Shown: one piece after another, positions 5,111 through 64,000 of the stretch
How positions within the stretch are numbered: position 1 is the first letter of the stretch
Layout of the letters: the number at the start of each line of letters is the position of its first letter
Origin: Naegleria gruberi
Lineage: Eukaryota
Length of the DNA stretch: 64,000 nt
Assembly (NCBI GenBank): GCA_000004985.1
Contig: GG738912.1
Reading direction: 5' to 3' (one strand)
Made by a program: the position numbers and the translations under genes
The notes under the pieces: model-generated
What the model was told of the DNA's origin: nothing
What the model saw: only the letters and a program-made list of their open reading frames with translations
Database searches by the model: none

Positions 5111-5492
5111 TTCGATCAATTTTGAATTAATATCAGAAAATTTCTAATTAATTAATTAGAATTTATATCCGAAAACTACTTTGTGAGAAAACAAGAGCCT
5201 AATAAAAACCCAATTTTCTTAAATTTATGAAACTTTCAAATCCTCCCTTGCTATAACCATTTAATAGTAGTAATCATGATGAAACTTCTTCCTTAAGGAA
5301 ACCAACGCCTTAATTTTTTTTTCTCACCAAAGAAAAATTCCACCACGCTACCTGCATCGTACGGATTCATCATATCGTTTGATACTCGACAAATTAAATC
5401 AAAGGCAAAAAATTGGGTGGTTCTTTTTCTTATTATTGTATATTAACAAGAGTGAGGGAAGGAGTTGTTGACAACAAATAATAAAAGAGAGA

Positions 5493-7060
5493 ATGACGAC
5501 TGAAGAGGAATTTGATGAAAATGATCTCCTTCTCGGAGGAGAAGCAACAACAGTTTCAGTTGAAGAATTTAGAGCAATGAAGAAAATGATGAAGGAGTAT
5601 ACGGAGAGAATTAAGGTTCTGGAAGATGTTTCAACACACTTTGCAAATGAATTTAAAATTATGAAAAAGTTGATCACAGCTCATGTCCATGAAGTGAACA
5701 ATAATATAGAAAACAAATTTAAGGAGATGAACAAGATTGTTGATTCAAAATTGGAAAAGATAGAAGGAAGATTGGATATGGCCTTTCAAAAATTGGAATC
5801 CACCTCTGAAGAATTGAACAAATCACAACATAGAAAGAGTAACAACTCTTCATTCCAAACCCCTAGAAAGAACGATTCTCTGTTGCAAATGTTCTCCCCG
5901 ATTGAAAGGAGTACAGGCAAGAAGGTTACTAGTGTTAAAAAACCAACTATTATAGAAGAGGAAGCACCATTGGAGGAAGTCGATTATACAGAAGAAATGA
6001 TAGAGGGTGTCTTGTCGTCGGAAGTTTTCGAGCCTCAACAAGGTATGTAGTATTGTTGTTGGAATGGATGACAGTTAACTCTTTGATTAGAAACTCTGCA
6101 AAAGATATTCAAGCATTGCGTTCTGAGATTGAAAGATTTGAATAAGGGAGATATTAGAAAAACAATGGCAAAAACGCATTTTGTGCAATTCTTTACAGAA
6201 GGAAAGATTGCCATCTTTTTGGATGAAAAGAGTTGTAACACCGATGTTGTTTGGATTGGAATTATGAAAAAGTTCAAAAAGTTTGGAATTATCAAGAGTA
6301 AGTAGTTTTTAGAGTTGATGAACAAATGTGAATTTCAATAGCTCAAGAAGAGTTATCGTATGACAACTTTGAGAAGGCAATCATAGTAATGGCTCAAAGC
6401 CTCAAAGATTCTTCATCAATGACACCAACACAACGAACTGAAATGTTTCTTGTTTCTTTCATTCCTAATTTCTATGATGTAATACAAATGAAGGAAGTCT
6501 ACAACTCAACTAATGAGGAACTTTTGAATCAGACCAGAGACATGGATAATTCCCATTACTTTTTAACAAACAATGAATGCTTTGATATTCTAAAGAAAAA
6601 CAGAAAACAATTGAAGCAAATATGGTCTATCCATAGTATCAATAAGAAACCAAGAGCTGGTTTACAACCAACACTGATTGGAGTCAACATTAAGGATCTA
6701 TTCGATATCTGTCAACAATATGGTTTGAAATCATTGATTACCAAAACTGATTTGATAACAGTAAGTATTCAGATGATATGGTTTTTTGTAATCATAAAAT
6801 CTTTTTAGATATTCGAACAAAGAATGGATCTCAAAAAGAATTCATTGTTTGAAAACAGACTTTCATACAATGCTTTCGAACTTGTACTAATTGACATTTC
6901 CAATCATATCTATGGTGGTAAACCATTTTGTAATACATACACTACTATTGAATCAAGAGTAGAAAAACTAATTAGCAAACTAATACTGGCATACGAAGAG
7001 GATAAATCAGTTCAAGCTGTCAAAATATTGAACGCTGTAACTTATGGACCGGGAATCTAG
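5493..7060 (+). CDS. Four-exon gene, join(5493..6042, 6091..6297, 6342..6760, 6809..7060), about 475 aa. It encodes an N-terminal coiled-coil region plus C-terminal helical (EF-hand-like?) domains.
   Basis: The frame is continuous across three GT..AG introns: 6043-6090, 6298-6341 and 6761-6808 (donors GTATGT/GTAAGT; acceptors TTAG/ATAG/TTAG). It joins track ORFs 5493..6050, 6389..6808 and 6824..7060. Function is not recognised. Confidence 0.55.
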
Positions 7061-37842: not shown

Positions 37843-37967
37843 GAAACGTGATATTGAGTTTAGTGCAATTTACAAAAAAGCGAAACGTGATCAGCTATCT
37901 TGCAATCTCTTCCAAACATCTGCGTGCGTTTTTAAATTTCATACGAAACGTGATATTGAGTTTAGTC
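37843..37967 (+). promoter_or_regulatory. Three copies of a CGAAACGTGA(TATTGAGTTTAGT) motif in a bidirectional promoter region
   Basis: The gaaacgtgat motif occurs at 37843, 37883 and 37946. The first and third copies each continue into a 24-nt stretch that is identical apart from its last base. The cluster sits between the kinase gene (minus, ATG 37655) and the gene starting at 38001. The same motif recurs upstream of the Hsp70-like gene at 62563-62626. Confidence 0.45.
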
Positions 37968-38000: not shown

Positions 38001-38918
38001 ATGTTTGAACATAATGATCAAGACAGTGCTGTCACTCTTTCTCTCATCGATTTTCATTCATACATTTCCACCAATTTATTAGAAAAATTCAAAAAGAAAC
38101 TTTGCTCACCTCTTTCTCCCCTGATTGAATTTTCACAGAATTTTACAAAAATTTACAAACTTCCAGAGCCATATGTTTACAATGTGGCAATTTGTCAGGA
38201 GCTTAATTATTTAATTGTCGGCTCGTTTTCAACTATAAATTTTTATAATTTGGTGACTCATGAAGGATTATTTCAAATTCCATTTGATGATGGAATTTAT
38301 GACTTGGATTTGGAGAGGGAAAATTCAGGTCAATTTAATTTGATAGTTTCTAGTAGAAACAATGAGTTATTCAAGTTTAATTTTACTGAAATGATAAAGA
38401 CGAAGGAGTTAGGAGAGCCAATTTGGAAATCTGAAAAGAGATTTAACCAAATTTGGGGTCTAACACGTTTCAAAACTGAAATTTATGTAGTTGATCATAG
38501 AGAGAAAATGTTTGCTTTTGATTTAAAGACAGGAAAATTACGCCATGATATTCAAATCGATCTTTCTGAGAACTTGGTTGATTTGGTTTTCACTCCAGAA
38601 GAGGAAATGATTGTGTGTGGAATAGATCAGTTACACATTTTGAAATTCAATGAAAAATCTAAAGGATGGGAAAAGATTAAAACCTTGGATAACAAAGATC
38701 ATATCATTAACGATTGCTTCAGTGTATGTTATGAAAAAAAGACGAGATTGATCTATCTCACCGACATGTATGGTAAATTATTCATATTCGATAGACAATT
38801 CAACCTATTGAAGGAAGTGGAAGGTTTGTCATATCCATATGGTGTTGCAATTAATGATAAGAATGGAGAATTGTTCCTATGTAACACTGGAGCATGTGAA
38901 ATACTAGTTTACAAATAG
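38001..38918 (+). CDS. NHL-like repeat beta-propeller protein (305 aa)
   Basis: The C-terminal blades resemble NHL repeats (KLFIFDRQFNLLKEV, YPYGVAINDKNGELFLCNTGACEILVY). It starts at ATG 38001. Confidence 0.4.
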   Translation: MFEHNDQDSAVTLSLIDFHSYISTNLLEKFKKKLCSPLSPLIEFSQNFTKIYKLPEPYVYNVAICQELNYLIVGSFSTINFYNLVTHEGLFQIPFDDGIYDLDLERENSGQFNLIVSSRNNELFKFNFTEMIKTKELGEPIWKSEKRFNQIWGLTRFKTEIYVVDHREKMFAFDLKTGKLRHDIQIDLSENLVDLVFTPEEEMIVCGIDQLHILKFNEKSKGWEKIKTLDNKDHIINDCFSVCYEKKTRLIYLTDMYGKLFIFDRQFNLLKEVEGLSYPYGVAINDKNGELFLCNTGACEILVYK

Positions 38919-59989: not shown

Positions 59990-60349
59990 ATGTCCTATCC
60001 AATTCCAACTCCATACGAATGGTCAACCACTCTCGATATTGGCAATGCTGAATTAAACGAACAACATAAGAAACTCTTCACTTTAATCAATGCCTTGGAT
60101 GCCAAGAGAAGTTGTGGCACAACATTGAAGGAATTATTAGATTACGTTGTTTTCCACTTCAAGACTGAAGAAGATTTGTTTGCTAAGGCTGGTTGGTCTG
60201 AATCTGCCTCTCATAAGGAAACTCATGATAAGTTTGTTCAGGATGCTTTGGCATTGACAAGCGTTGGAGATGGTGAGATGCAATTTATTAAGCAATGGTT
60301 GATTACTCACATTTGTGCCTCTGATATGAAGTATAAGGGTGTTATTTAA
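59990..60349 (+). CDS. Hemerythrin-like metal-binding protein (119 aa)
   Basis: From ATG 59990 the protein is MSYPIPTPYEWSTTLDIGNAELNEQHKKLFTLINALD...LLDYVVFHFKTEEDLF...HKETHDKFVQ...WLITHICASDMKY. The His/Glu/Asp ligand positions have hemerythrin spacing (H..x3..H, HF..EE, H..x3..H, H..x4..D). The track start at 59900 is not an ATG. Confidence 0.7.
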   Translation: MSYPIPTPYEWSTTLDIGNAELNEQHKKLFTLINALDAKRSCGTTLKELLDYVVFHFKTEEDLFAKAGWSESASHKETHDKFVQDALALTSVGDGEMQFIKQWLITHICASDMKYKGVI

Positions 60350-60600: not shown

Positions 60601-62513
60601 TCAGGTTAATGACATTTTATACCAACAATTGATTTCTTCTAATTTTTTTTCAATAGAACTCAAAGTCAAATGTTCTTGTAAAGTTTCAACAAACGTTTCA
60701 CAATTGCGCAAAGTAGTGTTTGCTTGATGGGTGTTACCAAATACTTTTTGTTTGATTACTGACATCTTACCTTTAACAAAGTATACCTTCTCAGTCAATT
60801 CATGCAATTTTTCCCACATTTCAGAATTTTCCTCTGGTTGACTGAGTGAAATCTGATTGTTACTGAATGTGAATTTTTCACTGAAGAATGTTGACCTACT
60901 CACTACATCATGTACATTAACAGTAAACACGCCGTCTTGGTCAACTCTGCATTCAACACATATTTTATGGTTAGAGGCAGGCTTTTGATCAATTTTTATG
61001 ATTGAATTGGTTAGTAATTCTAACATTGAGCTAATTTCAGATTCTCCCTCTCTGAAGGTCAAATTAATCTCTTTCGTTTCGTCTGATGAATTTGTAACTG
61101 CCAATAGTTTTTTACAAGGCAAAGGTGTTCCCTTTTCCAGAACCTTAATTAAGGAATTATTTTGATATTCCTTAATTCGAATAGTTCTTGAAAGACATTC
61201 AGTAATAGGAATGGCTTGTTTTTGATAAAGATCATGAGCCAAGTAGGCAGCTCCATAACTAACGATATAAATTATGTCACTATTTTGTGGTCTAGTAATT
61301 GTCTTTAACAAGTCAACTCACTGTCAAGTTATTAAATCTTACTTACAACTCCAGGTAGTTCATCTTGCACCCAATCTTTCACAAATGGAATAAGAGATGA
61401 TCCTCCAACCATAAGAACCTCATTAATATCACATCCAAGTTCTTTAAATTTTGAAATTAAGGTCTGGACCCTTTTTTGGAACGCCTCCTCACAATCTCTC
61501 TTAAATTGCTCATAATTCACAGAAATAATCAAAGATAAATCATTCTCAGGAATCTCAATACTAAAGTATTCAACATTTCGTCTAGTTGAACATAAGGTTT
61601 CTTTCAAAATTCTTGCCTTTGCACTCAACTTGTGTTTAACTTCTTTCTTTAAATTATTCAACTGAGATGTCAATGATTTTTCTTCGAGTGTCATGGAAGA
61701 TGCTCCAAACCAAACAGGTTTAATGTAATTTTGGAAAACCAAATTATCAACATCAACACCTCCCAAAGTAGAATCTCCCTCAACCCATTTCACAATAAAT
61801 TCCAATTGACTATCATGATTTTTACAAACTTGAATGAGTGAAATGTCCAAAGTTCCACCACCAAAATCAAATACCAAGTAATTACCTTCCCCTCTTTGAG
61901 GATCTTTCTTAAAATAGTAATAGGCAGCTGCGGATGGTTCTGGTAATAATTTCAAAACCTTAATGTTTGATTTTCTAGCTGCTTCCAAAGTTGCATTCTT
62001 TTGGAAAACTCCAAATTCAGCTGGAACTGTAATGACTGCTGGAATTTCTTGATCTTTTCTAAATACGGTTACATTTTCAAGAATTTTTTGAGCTACCAAT
62101 TCTGGAGAAATGTCAAGAAACTTTCCGTTTTCAAATACGAAACGACATGTGGCAAGTTGGTTCTCTTGATTAGCAACTATTTTGTAATCTAATTTCTTTT
62201 CATTTTCTTGAATGACGGCCACTTGATTGTCTTTTCTATCCAAACATTAAGAATAGTCAAAGTTTCGTCAACTAACTTACCTTTTACCAATGATTCGTTT
62301 AGTTTCTGTAGCGTAGAGAACACCATTAACATCTTCCAATTCTCCAACACCAGTTTGAAATGATTCTCCGTTTATACAGCTTACATTCACAACAGAGTTT
62401 TGGAAATTACATGATCCTTGTGAAATATATTTCGTATATCCAAATTCATCAATGTACGAAACAATGGTTGTGCTAGTACCTAGATCAATACCAATACACT
62501 TAATATCACTCAT
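60601..62513 (-). CDS. Divergent Hsp70-family protein, join(62513..62281, 62235..61347, 61302..60601), about 607 aa
   Basis: Exon 1 reads MSDIKCIGIDLGTSTTIVSY...TKRIIGK. A 45-nt intron follows. Exon 2 carries the NBD motifs AVITVPAEF, LVFDFGGGTLDISL, GGVDVDN and VLMVGGSSLIPFV. A 44-nt intron follows. Exon 3 reads IYIVSYGAAYLAHDL plus a divergent substrate-binding domain with no EEVD. The splice phases were verified. Confidence 0.75.
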
Positions 62514-62562
62514 TTTTTTTAAAAGAAACACATACTTCACATCATGCATGACATATAAACTA

Positions 62563-62626
62563 TCACGTTTTCGAATAAACCCACTCACGTTTCGAAATTT
62601 AGAGTTTACAATATTCACGTTTCGAA
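62563..62626 (-). promoter_or_regulatory. Three copies of TTCGAAACGTGA in the Hsp70-like promoter
   Basis: On the plus strand tcacgttttcgaa, tcacgtttcgaa and tcacgtttcgaa lie at 62563, 62585 and 62615. On the gene strand (minus) they read CGAAACGTGA. They sit 50-115 nt upstream of ATG 62513 and share the core motif with 37843-37967. Confidence 0.45.
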
Positions 62627-62634
62627 TCAATCTT

Positions 62635-63927
62635 TTAATTGATATTTTTAACAAACGAAACCTTATAATTTCTAATCATCAGCTCCCTCAGAATACAACC
62701 AACAGAAATCATACTGCCATTATTCAAATATCTACGATTTTCTCCCTTTTTGAATTTTGACAAGCTTGGAATATTCCACAATCCTCCAACAAGTAGTAAT
62801 TGATTACTGTTAAATATTGGCATATTTTCATCAAGAGTTAATTCAGGAAATTCGCTTCTTTTGATAAAAACTGGTCCTTCAAGACTATCCTCTCCAAAAA
62901 TCATTCTAATAGTTTCGGATATAGAAATTTCGTCATCTTGACCATATTGATACATATTCATCATGAGTTTGTTCATTTGAAATGTAAATTTTGCACTTCT
63001 TTCGTCTTTGATATCATTCGTTTTCAATTCTCCATTTTCATACCTGTAATTCAATTTGCAACGAACCAAGATTCGATTACAAAAATCTGAAAGTATTTTA
63101 ACTCCACTAAAACTGAAGCTATATAATACTGTGGATTCGAATACTAGGGAATTGGAATCTTTCCTCACTATACATTGATAGGTGCCTGTACCTGATAAAT
63201 TGAAAATGCTGAACTGAATGCTCATTTCTTTGAATTGTTGCAGAGACGTTTCGTCAGGTTCTTTTTTAAAATCTAACTGATAGAATTGAGCTACATAATA
63301 TGAAATTACAGCCTCGTGCTCAAAACAAGTAGAATTGTTTACAATCTTACTGTCACAATGAAGCTCCCATCCGTATGGAATGGCTGTAATAAATTTCTTA
63401 TTCGAATCTTCATCAATTTGTTTTGAAAATGCTCCAATTAAATGATATATTAAATTACTATTCAATTTTCTTTCTGGAATATTTGAGAATTTTCTGAAAT
63501 ATTCAATGGAAAGCGCTGGTTGACCTTCTGTGATCTCTAACACTTGTTCTCCAATCATATTAGAATAAAATACAGAGGTTATTCTTGTTGAATACAGATC
63601 ATTAATTTTTGATGAACCAATGTTATGATAACTTGCTTGTGAATAAAAAGTTCCACAATCAATTCCAATAATTTGATGAATTTTGTATTCACTTTCCTCC
63701 ATAATTGGTTCCACAGGGTTCTCATTTGAATTTTTCTCGATAGATGTTTGGGTTTCATAATTTTCAACAATTACTTGGACATCCCCTTCCAAATTTTCAT
63801 TCATTTTACAATAGTTAATATGGTTTTCTTCTTCTTTTGGCTCCTCAATTGACATTCTCTTCTCCGTCTTAATTTTACAATCACTTTCATCATTCATAAC
63901 CCATTCTCCCATAATTTCATTCCTCAT
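62635..63927 (-). CDS. Highly divergent Hsp70/actin-fold NBD-like protein (430 aa), lying in tandem upstream of the Hsp70-like gene
   Basis: Four degenerate counterparts of Hsp70 NBD motifs are present: IIGIDCGTFYSQAS (phosphate-1), ITAIPYGW (connect-1), FNLSGTGTYQ (phosphate-2) and LLLVGGLWNIPSL (adenosine). There is no substrate-binding domain. Confidence 0.5.
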   Translation of the reverse strand: MRNEIMGEWVMNDESDCKIKTEKRMSIEEPKEEENHINYCKMNENLEGDVQVIVENYETQTSIEKNSNENPVEPIMEESEYKIHQIIGIDCGTFYSQASYHNIGSSKINDLYSTRITSVFYSNMIGEQVLEITEGQPALSIEYFRKFSNIPERKLNSNLIYHLIGAFSKQIDEDSNKKFITAIPYGWELHCDSKIVNNSTCFEHEAVISYYVAQFYQLDFKKEPDETSLQQFKEMSIQFSIFNLSGTGTYQCIVRKDSNSLVFESTVLYSFSFSGVKILSDFCNRILVRCKLNYRYENGELKTNDIKDERSAKFTFQMNKLMMNMYQYGQDDEISISETIRMIFGEDSLEGPVFIKRSEFPELTLDENMPIFNSNQLLLVGGLWNIPSLSKFKKGENRRYLNNGSMISVGCILRELMIRNYKVSFVKNIN

Positions 63928-64000
63928 ATGAACTATTTTTAAATCCTTTACATTAGTTTGCTGAGTTCTACATTGTTTGTAATCATCAAATGCACTATCG

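What the first reader, a model, noticed from the sequence alone, without database searches (positions are those of the whole stretch)
60601..63927. Tandem pair of divergent Hsp70-like genes, one reduced to a degenerate nucleotide-binding domain
Two adjacent minus-strand genes both begin with an IGIDxGT phosphate-1 motif. The downstream one (60601-62513, 3 exons) retains all the NBD motifs and a divergent SBD, but lacks EEVD. The upstream one (62635-63927) keeps only weak counterparts of the four NBD motifs and has no SBD. This looks like local duplication followed by sub- or neo-functionalisation, or pseudo-chaperone evolution comparable to Hsp110/HSPA14-type atypical Hsp70s.
Basis: partly seen in the sequence, partly recalled or inferred. 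Interest (0 to 1): 0.5.

Follow-up and report, generated by a model that had tools for sequence, protein, structure and literature searches.

The report
Divergent Hsp70 gene beside degenerate Hsp70-like gene
In the amoeba Naegleria gruberi, an intact but very divergent Hsp70 chaperone gene sits next to a fast-evolving orphan gene that is most likely a catalytically dead remnant of an Hsp70 ATPase domain; this is an interesting but fairly ordinary case of gene-family decay or repurposing.

Summary
The window is Naegleria gruberi NEG-M. Gene 1 (60601-62513, minus strand, 3 exons, 607 aa) is confirmed as a real, very divergent Hsp70. It scores Pfam HSP70 E=2e-44, keeps every invariant ATPase residue, has a substrate-binding domain and is under purifying selection (omega 0.17). 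Gene 2 is an orphan with one relative (98% identical) among 1.84 billion representative proteins. It has no Pfam or PDB hit, and AlphaFold failed on it (pLDDT 28-33). Against Hsp70 NBD profiles it still beats every control: it gives two colinear hits, at the phosphate-1 motif (IIGIDCGT) and the adenosine motif (LLLVGGLWNIP). No shuffle or control ORF matched the hhalign score. In the HMMER tests, shuffles reached its score about 1 time in 1000-2000. It has no SBD, lacks K71/E175 counterparts and the GGGT loop, evolves about twice as fast as its neighbours (omega 0.77), and has normal codon usage. Its ORF runs off the window; the annotated start is 30 codons beyond base 64000. A third Hsp70 paralog (EFC37983) lies just outside the window, divergent from gene 2. 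The reference annotation fuses genes 2 and 1 into one 1081-aa protein through an atypical 154-nt intron. I favour two genes, each behind a triplet of AAACGTGA promoter-like motifs. Interest is modest.

The parts
62281..62513 (-). Gene 1 exon 1. ATG at 62513 in an A-run context (ttaaaaaaaATG). Phosphate-1 motif IGIDLGTS at 62472-62495.
62236..62280 (-). Gene 1 intron 1, 45 nt, GTAAGT...AG
   Evidence: the junction is confirmed by a continuous alignment to BiP and by EFC38025
61347..62235 (-). Gene 1 exon 2. Most of the NBD: K72, E177, DFGGGTLD, MVGGSSLIP.
61303..61346 (-). Gene 1 intron 2, 44 nt, GTAAGT...AG
60601..61302 (-). Gene 1 exon 3. End of the NBD, degenerate interdomain linker (QAIPITEC), divergent SBD-beta and C-terminal helical region. 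Stop TGA at 60601-60603; no EEVD.
62514..62634 (-). 121-nt spacer between the gene 2 stop and the gene 1 ATG. It holds three AAACGTGA motifs (62615-62622, 62585-62592, 62563-62570). The last ends 50 nt before the ATG. Candidate promoter of gene 1. The reference model places the spacer inside a 154-nt intron (62499-62652).
62635..64000 (-). Gene 2. The ORF is open to the window end; the full protein is 484 aa, with its start about 90 nt beyond base 64000. Stop TAA at 62635-62637. The N-terminal ~130 aa are a charged, low-complexity extension. The C-terminal ~355 aa are the degenerate NBD-like region.
63649..63672 (-). Gene 2 phosphate-1-like motif IIGIDCGT
62767..62802 (-). Gene 2 adenosine-like motif QLLLVGGLWNIP, followed by the connect-2-like NNGSMISVGCIL

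Best explanation
The locus is the window-internal part of a three-gene cluster in Naegleria gruberi. The gene order is g3 (EFC37983, just past base 64000, transcribed divergently), gene 2, then gene 1.

Gene 1 and g3 belong to a lineage-restricted, very divergent Hsp70 clade. Gene 1 is an intact ATP-hydrolysing Hsp70-type chaperone with an NBD, a degenerate linker, a divergent SBD, no targeting signal and no EEVD. It is kept under purifying selection.

Gene 2 is a separate, SBD-less gene of 484 aa. Its C-terminal ~355 residues most likely descend from an Hsp70-type nucleotide-binding domain. They have lost the catalytic Lys and Glu and the Gly-rich phosphate-2 loop, and kept only the phosphate-1 and adenosine/connect-2 segments. 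By inference, gene 2 is an ATPase-dead scaffold or regulatory partner (a pseudo-chaperone) of the neighbouring Hsp70s, or a rapidly drifting copy that is still translated.

Each of the three genes has a cluster of three (A)AACGTGA motifs in its upstream region, which suggests shared transcriptional control. The reference model that fuses genes 2 and 1 into a 1081-aa protein is probably an annotation artefact.

Shown: the gene structures, the Hsp70 identity and selection on gene 1, the orphan status of gene 2, its above-chance NBD similarity, and the motif clusters. Inferred: the fold of gene 2, its loss of ATPase activity, any partner role, and promoter function.
For: Organism and context:
- Window proteins are exact matches to N. 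gruberi proteins.
- The window encodes residues 31-1081 of EFC38025 exactly.
- g3 (EFC37983) is on the same scaffold. In a 98-99% identical strain it lies divergently upstream of gene 2.

Gene 1:
- Pfam HSP70 152 bits. PDB BiP/Hsc70 E~1e-33 through the SBD. All invariant residues are present.
- dN/dS is 0.17, from 6 nonsynonymous and 9 synonymous changes in 501 codons.

Gene 2 as an orphan:
- Only relative in 1.84e9 representatives is a 98% identical protein.

Gene 2 similarity to the Hsp70 NBD:
- hhalign hits at phosphate-1 (score 34.3, P=6e-4) and the adenosine segment (P=0.0012).
- The colinear chain scores 73.8. The maximum was 44.2 in 600 shuffles and 36.3 in 104 real or reversed window ORFs.
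- With the 36-sequence profile, hmmsearch gives 8.3 bits for the 430-aa ORF, reached by 2 of 2000 shuffles.
- With the 234-sequence NBD profile it gives 8.8 bits. The best other window ORF scores 1.9 and the best of 2000 shuffles scores 9.2.

Gene 2 as a coding gene:
- Codon-usage log-likelihood ratio is 0.23-0.35 in frame, like bona fide genes, and negative in the other frames.
- Its dN is 0.009, against 0.052 divergence in flanking non-coding DNA.

Two genes rather than one:
- The gene 1 ATG has the A-run context typical of starts in this window.
- All six AAACGTGA copies in the 64 kb lie in two triplets, ending 48-50 nt upstream of an ATG.
- In locus L001 the motif is found only in the g3/gene 2 spacer and the gene 2/gene 1 spacer: 6 copies against 0.36 expected.
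- Seven GTAAGT donors bridge long ORFs in the window, five of them with 44-48-nt introns. The fusion needs a 154-nt intron with a GTTAAA donor.

Parallel case: in metagenome locus L003, a stand-alone 475-aa SBD-less NBD-like gene (X3) scores 13.4 bits against the NBD profile, with 0 of 2000 shuffles reaching that. It has the same kind of 45-nt GTAAGT intron and lies two genes from P0005, the closest relative of gene 1.
Against: - Gene 2 fails every family-level threshold: no Pfam, NCBIfam or PDB hit to Hsp70 or any actin-like ATPase family at E<=1.
- BLASTP against gene 1 and g3 is insignificant.
- With the first, smaller profile and the N-terminal extension included, one unrelated window ORF outscored gene 2: 9.0 against 4.4 bits.
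- Global pairwise z-scores depend on parameters, ranging from 0.4 to 5.0.
- Both AlphaFold runs were uninformative, with pLDDT 27.7 and 32.9, so the fold is untested.
- Gene 2 and X3 show no significant direct similarity.
- Omega 0.77 on 13 differences is compatible with neutrality.
- The reference annotation joins the two ORFs, and no transcript data were available to me.
Confidence: 0.62

Rival explanations
1. There is one gene, as in the reference annotation (EFC38025 / NAEGRDRAFT_74267, 1081 aa). A 154-nt intron (62499-62652) removes the last five codons and stop of gene 2, the spacer, and the first five codons of gene 1. The product is a single protein with a degenerate pseudo-NBD fused in front of a complete Hsp70 (NBD-SBD).
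For: The reference protein has exactly this structure, and the window reproduces it residue for residue. GT and AG dinucleotides are present at the right phase. Both ORFs are on the same strand, only 121 nt apart.
Against: - The donor is GTTAAA and the intron is 154 nt. The two confirmed gene 1 introns, the L003 intron and most candidate introns in the window have GTAAGT donors and are 44-48 nt long.
- Gene 1 has its own ATG five codons before the phosphate-1 motif, in the A-run context typical of local start codons.
- The supposed intron holds the same triple AAACGTGA array that lies upstream of another gene's ATG at the same 48-50-nt distance, and upstream of g3 and gene 2 in L001.
- The stop codon of gene 2 is conserved in the related strain.
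- A stand-alone NBD-only gene exists in L003.
Confidence: 0.2
2. Gene 2 is an unrelated lineage-specific orphan gene. Its IGIDxGT and LVGGxxIP strings resemble Hsp70 motifs by chance, and its position between two Hsp70 genes is a coincidence.
For: - No database family or structure match.
- Pairwise comparisons are insignificant.
- HMMER gives only 8-9 bits, reached by shuffles about 1 time in 1000-2000.
- The phosphate-2 placement is ambiguous.
- There is no usable structure model.
Against: - Two separate profile hits are colinear and correctly spaced: about 290 residues apart, against about 330 in Hsp70.
- The chained hhalign score is above all 600 shuffles and all 104 control sequences.
- Gene 2 is the best non-Hsp70 ORF in the window by a wide margin with the deeper profile.
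- It is flanked on both sides by Hsp70 paralogs and shares their upstream motif.
- The total length and the region after the adenosine motif fit an NBD that ends where the linker would begin.
Confidence: 0.13
3. Gene 2 is a non-functional, decaying duplicate (a pseudogene with an ORF that is still open), not a working protein.
For: - Omega is 0.77 from 10 nonsynonymous and 3 synonymous differences. Omega <=0.2 is rejected (p=0.026) and neutrality is not.
- Its amino-acid divergence between strains is about twice that of gene 1 and g3.
- Catalytic residues are lost.
Against: - A 484-codon ORF is intact in a 33% GC genome, where about 7% of random codons are stops, even though the sequence has diverged beyond recognition from any parent.
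- In-frame codon usage equals that of real genes.
- Nonsynonymous divergence is 0.009, far below the 0.052 of flanking non-coding DNA.
- It has its own upstream motif cluster and an A-run start context in L001.
Confidence: 0.1

Closest known systems
Canonical Hsp70/DnaK family (Pfam PF00012), e.g. BiP and Hsc70
   Same: Gene 1 has the full NBD with all catalytic and invariant residues, and a beta-sandwich SBD that aligns to BiP through residue ~535.
   Different: - Gene 1 is only 25-30% identical to any Hsp70.
- It scores 152 bits, and NCBIfam DnaK/HscA scores are 4-5 times below their cut-offs.
- The hydrophobic interdomain linker DLLLLD is replaced by QAIPITEC.
- It has no EEVD, KDEL or presequence.
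- With g3, P0005 and P0126 it forms a separate clade (90/100 bootstrap in a neighbour-joining tree).
NBD-only Hsp70 relatives: HSPA13/STCH (eukaryotes) and YegD (bacteria). Named from my own knowledge of these families.
   Same: Gene 2 has the same architecture: an Hsp70-like nucleotide-binding domain with no substrate-binding domain.
   Different: Those proteins keep recognisable Hsp70 NBD sequences and ATPase motifs, and they hit PF00012. Gene 2 does not. It lacks the K71, E175 and GGGT counterparts and carries a ~130-aa charged N-terminal extension.
ATPase-inactive atypical Hsp70s that act as partners of other Hsp70s: Ssz1/HSPA14 in the ribosome-associated complex, and Hsp110/Grp170 as exchange factors. 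Named from my own knowledge.
   Same: The concept is shared: a degenerate Hsp70 paralog that no longer works as a foldase but regulates or scaffolds a canonical partner.
   Different: Ssz1/HSPA14 and Hsp110 retain clear Hsp70 sequence similarity and at least part of an SBD. Hsp110 has an extended SBD and lid, about 800-1000 aa in total. Neither gene here shows those features. No phylogenetic link was found, and no interaction has been tested.
X3, an unannotated 475-aa gene in metagenome locus L003 (7216-7718 + 7764-8688)
   Same: - It is SBD-less with an N-terminal low-complexity extension and an NBD-like core, and is almost the same length (475 against 484 aa).
- It lies two genes from P0005, the closest relative of gene 1.
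- The contig has the same 33% GC, and the gene has a 45-nt GTAAGT intron.
- The catalytic D199 is replaced by N.
   Different: X3 keeps the GGG of phosphate-2 and matches the NBD profile more strongly (13.4 bits). Direct similarity to gene 2 is not significant, so orthology is unproven.

Membership tests
Hsp70 (PF00012), gene 1 | Score above the Pfam HSP70 gathering threshold across NBD and SBD | tested here: met
   152.1 bits against a cut-off of 20.6; residues 7-548 match profile positions 2-522 of 599
Hsp70 (PF00012), gene 1 | Catalytic and nucleotide-binding residues (D10, K71, E175, D199, T204, D206, G338/G339 equivalents) | tested here: met
   D10, K72, E177, D201, G203-G204, T206, D208, G355-G356 all lie in columns invariant or >=90% conserved across 36 Hsp70s (alignment)
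Hsp70 (PF00012), gene 1 | Conserved hydrophobic interdomain linker (D/E)(V/L)LLLD | tested here: not met
   The aligned segment is KQAIPITEC
Eukaryotic cytosolic Hsp70 subfamily, gene 1 | C-terminal EEVD motif | tested here: not met
   The protein ends ...EEINCWYKMSLT
DnaK / HscA equivalogs (NCBIfam), gene 1 and g3 | Score above the equivalog cut-off | tested here: not met
   Best scores are 162.5 and 210.8 bits against cut-offs of 620-1019
Hsp70 NBD / actin-like ATPase fold, gene 2 | Significant match to a curated family model | tested here: not met
   No HSP70, MreB, FtsA or actin hit at E<=1 in Pfam or NCBIfam, and none in PDB sequences
Hsp70 NBD / actin-like ATPase fold, gene 2 | Phosphate-1 motif (I/V)GID(L)GT and adenosine motif LVGG(S/T)xxIP, in colinear order | tested here: met
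   IIGIDCGT and LLLVGGLWNIP. The hhalign chain scores 73.8, above all 600 shuffles and all 104 controls. HMMER gives 8.8 bits, against 1.9 for the next best ORF.
Hsp70 NBD / actin-like ATPase fold, gene 2 | Phosphate-2 motif DxGGGT, and the catalytic K71 and E175 | tested here: not met
   The candidates are LDFKKEPDE or FNLSGTGT. K71 aligns to Thr and E175 to Asn in the MAFFT alignment. The placement is ambiguous.
Hsp70 NBD / actin-like ATPase fold, gene 2 | Two-lobed RNase-H-like fold | tested here: inconclusive
   AlphaFold2 gave pLDDT 27.7 (full length, 2 sequences) and 32.9 (core, single sequence). No usable model, so no fold search was run.
Hsp110 / Grp170 | Hsp70-like NBD plus an extended SBD with an acidic insertion and a long lid (about 800-1000 aa) | tested here: not met
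   Gene 1 is 607 aa with a normal-length SBD. Gene 2 has no SBD.
HSPA14 / Ssz1 | Orthology by phylogeny, and association with a J-protein in the ribosome-associated complex | not tested
   No HSPA14/Ssz1 reference sequences appeared among the hits. The interaction cannot be tested with these tools.

The most novel reading that the evidence does not exclude
Heterolobosean amoebae carry a conserved two-component module. It pairs a lineage-specific divergent Hsp70 (the gene 1/P0005 type) with a stand-alone, catalytically dead NBD-only partner carrying a charged N-terminal tail (the gene 2/X3 type). The genes are co-regulated in N. gruberi through an AAACGTGA element. The dead NBD would regulate the live Hsp70 through NBD-NBD contact, as an independent reinvention of the Ssz1 or Hsp110 principle. 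Alternatively, the fused 1081-aa pseudo-NBD-Hsp70 is real, which would be an unusual tandem-NBD architecture.
Probability: 0.15. Interest if true: 0.5.

Novelty: new variant of a known kind. Interest (0 to 1): 0.3.

Why it matters
Practical value: the reference N. gruberi model NAEGRDRAFT_74267 probably merges two genes. It also hides a protein-coding gene that no family model recognises.

Biological value: this is a compact example of Hsp70 family diversification in a deep-branching eukaryote. One paralog is intact and constrained. The other has been stripped to an NBD-like core that has lost its ATPase residues. Both may be under common control by a short repeated promoter motif. If the dead NBD is a working partner of the neighbouring Hsp70s, it would be another independent case of pseudo-enzyme evolution within chaperone systems. 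None of this overturns current understanding, because degenerate paralogs are common in expanded families.

Tried and rejected
- Homologue searches for gene 2 found only the 98% identical P0001 (word-indexed search; exhaustive phmmer search). Two JGI metagenome scans and one IMG/VR scan found nothing, so no alignment could be built.
- AlphaFold2 on the full length plus P0001 and on the core alone gave pLDDT of 33 or less. No fold search was run, because it would be meaningless.
- I decided against modelling gene 2 with an Hsp70 alignment as its MSA, because that is circular.
- Global pairwise alignment z-scores looked promising against g3 (z=5.0). They were unstable across matrices (1.1-3.2), and that alignment did not even pair the two phosphate-1 motifs. 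I do not use them as evidence.
- hhalign in global mode gave nonsense.
- With the first 36-sequence full-length HMM, an unrelated ORF (5472-6047) scored 9.0 bits. This showed that single-hit HMMER scores near 8-9 bits are not decisive alone. The NBD-only 234-sequence profile removed that competitor.
- Look-ups of N. gruberi contigs around P0125 and EFC37981 returned nothing. DNA beyond base 64000 was therefore read only from the related strain, L001.
- Literature searches for the locus tags and for Naegleria splice-site statistics found nothing usable. A giant-virus origin was considered because of PMC11043551. L003 has a spliceosomal-type intron and gene 1 has two, so I did not pursue it.
- The AAACGTGA motif is not conserved in L003.
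Full report
**Source and context**

The window has 33% GC. It carries exact copies of three Naegleria gruberi proteins: kinase EFC38022, beta-tubulin EFC37980 and EFC37981. All lie on one 238,573-bp scaffold. With the reference gene model, the window reproduces residues 31-1081 of EFC38025 (NAEGRDRAFT_74267) exactly. It is therefore the NEG-M reference sequence.

**Gene 1**

On the minus strand, 60601-62513 contains two GTAAGT sites. Only one donor/acceptor combination gives an open frame. The exons are 62513-62281, 62235-61347 and 61302-60601, with introns of 45 and 44 nt and a 607-aa product.

- It matches Pfam HSP70 at E=2.2e-44 over residues 7-548.
- It aligns with BiP and Hsc70 structures through the SBD-beta at E~1e-33.
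- It carries every column that is invariant in an alignment of 36 Hsp70s: K72, E177, D201, G203, G204, T206, D208, G355, G356.
- It is nevertheless very divergent. It is 25-30% identical to everything in a 5.8-billion-protein collection. It scores 4-5 times below the NCBIfam DnaK/HscA cut-offs.
- Its interdomain linker is degenerate (QAIPITEC). It has no EEVD, KDEL or presequence.
- Against a 1.8-kb contig from a closely related strain (L002), it shows 6 nonsynonymous and 9 synonymous differences in 501 codons, giving omega 0.17.

Gene 1 is a functional, constrained, atypical Hsp70.

**Gene 2 as an object**

The ORF ending at 62635 is open all the way to base 64000. That start is about 90 nt outside the window.

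The gene is an orphan. P0001 is its only relative in the word-indexed search and in an exhaustive phmmer search of 1.84 billion representatives. Metagenome and viral contig scans added nothing. It has no Pfam, NCBIfam or PDB sequence match.

It looks like a real coding sequence:
- The in-frame codon-usage score is 0.23-0.35, like the trusted genes of the window, and is negative in all other frames.
- The ORF is 484 codons long in an AT-rich genome.
- Nonsynonymous divergence from L001 is 0.009, far below the 0.052 of flanking non-coding DNA.

Constraint is weak, however. There are 10 nonsynonymous and 3 synonymous differences, giving omega 0.77. Omega <=0.2 is rejected at p=0.026, and neutrality is not rejected. 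Between strains, gene 2 changes about twice as fast at the protein level as gene 1 and g3.

**Is gene 2 Hsp70-derived?**

Direct BLASTP against gene 1 and g3 is insignificant. Profile methods give a consistent but modest signal.

- hhalign against Hsp70 profiles finds two separate segments. Phosphate-1 (IIGIDCGTFYSQASY) has P=6e-4. Adenosine/connect-2 (NQLLLVGGLWNIPSL...NNGSMISVG) has P=0.0012.
- The two segments are colinear and about 290 residues apart, against about 330 in Hsp70.
- The chained score of 73.8 exceeds all 600 composition-preserving shuffles (maximum 44.2). It also exceeds all 104 real or reversed ORFs from the same window (maximum 36.3).
- HMMER without filters gives 8.3 bits for the 430-aa ORF with the 36-sequence profile, reached by 2 of 2000 shuffles. 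In that same run, with the N-terminal extension included, the ORF scored only 4.4 bits and an unrelated ORF scored 9.0.
- With a 234-sequence NBD-only profile, HMMER gives 8.8 bits. The next best non-Hsp70 ORF scores 1.9, and the best of 2000 shuffles scores 9.2.

The second segment and the genomic position are independent of that choice.

MAFFT places FITAIPYGWE opposite AVITVPAYFN. It puts Thr opposite K71 and Asn opposite E175. The Gly-rich phosphate-2 loop becomes KKEP or, in an alternative register, SGTG. The protein stops where the interdomain linker would begin, so there is no SBD.

AlphaFold2 gave no usable model, with pLDDT 27.7 and 32.9. The fold remains untested. I put about 80% on NBD descent and treat loss of ATPase activity as a reasonable inference.

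**A cluster of three genes**

In L001, a 604-aa Hsp70-like gene lies divergently upstream of gene 2 (Pfam HSP70 E=5.6e-64). Its N. gruberi copy is EFC37983, on the same scaffold. Gene 2 is therefore flanked by Hsp70 paralogs on both sides.

Gene 1 and g3 are only 28% identical. In a neighbour-joining tree they form a clade with two metagenomic proteins, P0005 and P0126 (90/100 bootstrap). This clade is apart from cytosolic Hsp70, DnaK and HscC. Gene 1 pairs with P0005 (67/100) rather than with g3 (10/100). The duplication is therefore old, not a recent local event.

**A parallel elsewhere**

The 45-kb contig carrying P0005 (L003, also 33% GC) has two adjacent unannotated ORFs two genes upstream of P0005. 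A 45-nt GTAAGT...AG intron joins them into a 475-aa protein, X3. X3 has:
- an N-terminal low-complexity tail;
- a phosphate-1-like ILDYGTVYS;
- INFGGGHMS in place of FDLGGGTFD;
- no SBD.

It matches the NBD profile at 13.4 bits, and 0 of 2000 shuffles reach that score. This shows that stand-alone, degenerate NBD-only genes accompany this Hsp70 clade. X3 and gene 2 are not significantly similar to each other, so orthology is only a hypothesis.

**One gene or two?**

The reference annotation joins gene 2 to gene 1 through a 154-nt intron (62652-62499, GTTAAA...AAG). That gives a 1081-aa product. I favour two genes, for these reasons:

- The gene 1 ATG lies five codons before its phosphate-1 motif. 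It sits in the A-run context seen at most starts in this window.
- The window's GTAAGT introns are mostly 44-48 nt long.
- The 121-nt spacer contains three AAACGTGA motifs. All six copies in the 64 kb (1.8 expected) fall in two such triplets. Each triplet ends 48-50 nt before an ATG. The other triplet precedes ORF 38001-38918.
- In L001 the shorter AACGTGA occurs six times (0.36 expected): three in the g3/gene 2 divergent spacer and three in the gene 2/gene 1 spacer.

This looks like a shared promoter element and implies separate transcription units. Without transcript data, the fused reading keeps about 20%.

**Verdict**

The locus holds an intact divergent Hsp70 and a neighbouring SBD-less, probably NBD-derived pseudo-ATPase. 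Both lie within a three-gene cluster that appears to be co-regulated. There is no evidence for recent tandem duplication or for membership of Hsp110 or HSPA14.

This is a new variant of a known theme, degenerate Hsp70 paralogs, together with a likely annotation error. Interest is modest.

Noticed in passing
window 37843-37953 (+) and 62563-62623 (-); L001 2267-2344 and 3829-3887: The motif (G)AAACGTGA occurs only as triplet clusters lying 50-160 nt upstream of start codons: ORF 38001-38918, gene 1 and, in L001, g3 and gene 2. Counts are 6 copies against 1.8 expected in the window, and 6 against 0.36 expected in L001. This is a candidate shared transcription-factor site. It is not conserved in L003.
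   Followed up: partly
window 62499-62652 (-): Reference model EFC38025 / NAEGRDRAFT_74267 (1081 aa) fuses gene 2 and gene 1 through an atypical 154-nt intron with a GTTAAA donor. The intron swallows a stop codon, a promoter-like spacer and a good start codon. It is probably a mis-annotation.
   Followed up: yes
just beyond window base 64000; L001 398-2212 (-): A third divergent Hsp70 paralog (604 aa, EFC37983 / NAEGRDRAFT_81760) is transcribed divergently from gene 2, across a 148-nt spacer in the related strain.
   Followed up: yes
L003 7216-8688 (+): An unannotated 475-aa gene (X3) is formed by two ORFs joined by a 45-nt GTAAGT intron. It encodes an SBD-less, degenerate Hsp70 NBD-like protein and lies two genes from the Hsp70 P0005. 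A VWA-domain gene sits between them on the opposite strand. The contig is eukaryotic (33% GC) and of unknown organism.
   Followed up: partly
window 59990-60349 (+): A hemerythrin gene (EFC37982, 119 aa) is convergent with gene 1. Its 90%-identity cluster also contains a 119-aa 'myohemerythrin' carried by several other N. gruberi accessions (EFC37887, EFC38044, EFC47558), so this is a multi-copy family.
   Followed up: no
window 6761, 12659, 27706 (+); 47332, 47968 (-): Further candidate spliceosomal introns with GTAAGT donors bridge long ORFs, mostly 44-48 nt to the first compatible AG. This suggests a very narrow intron length class in this genome region.
   Followed up: partly
window 38001-38918 (+): A 305-aa ORF with only weak beta-propeller/NHL-like Pfam hits shares the AAACGTGA triplet promoter architecture with the Hsp70 cluster. 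It may be co-regulated with it.
   Followed up: no
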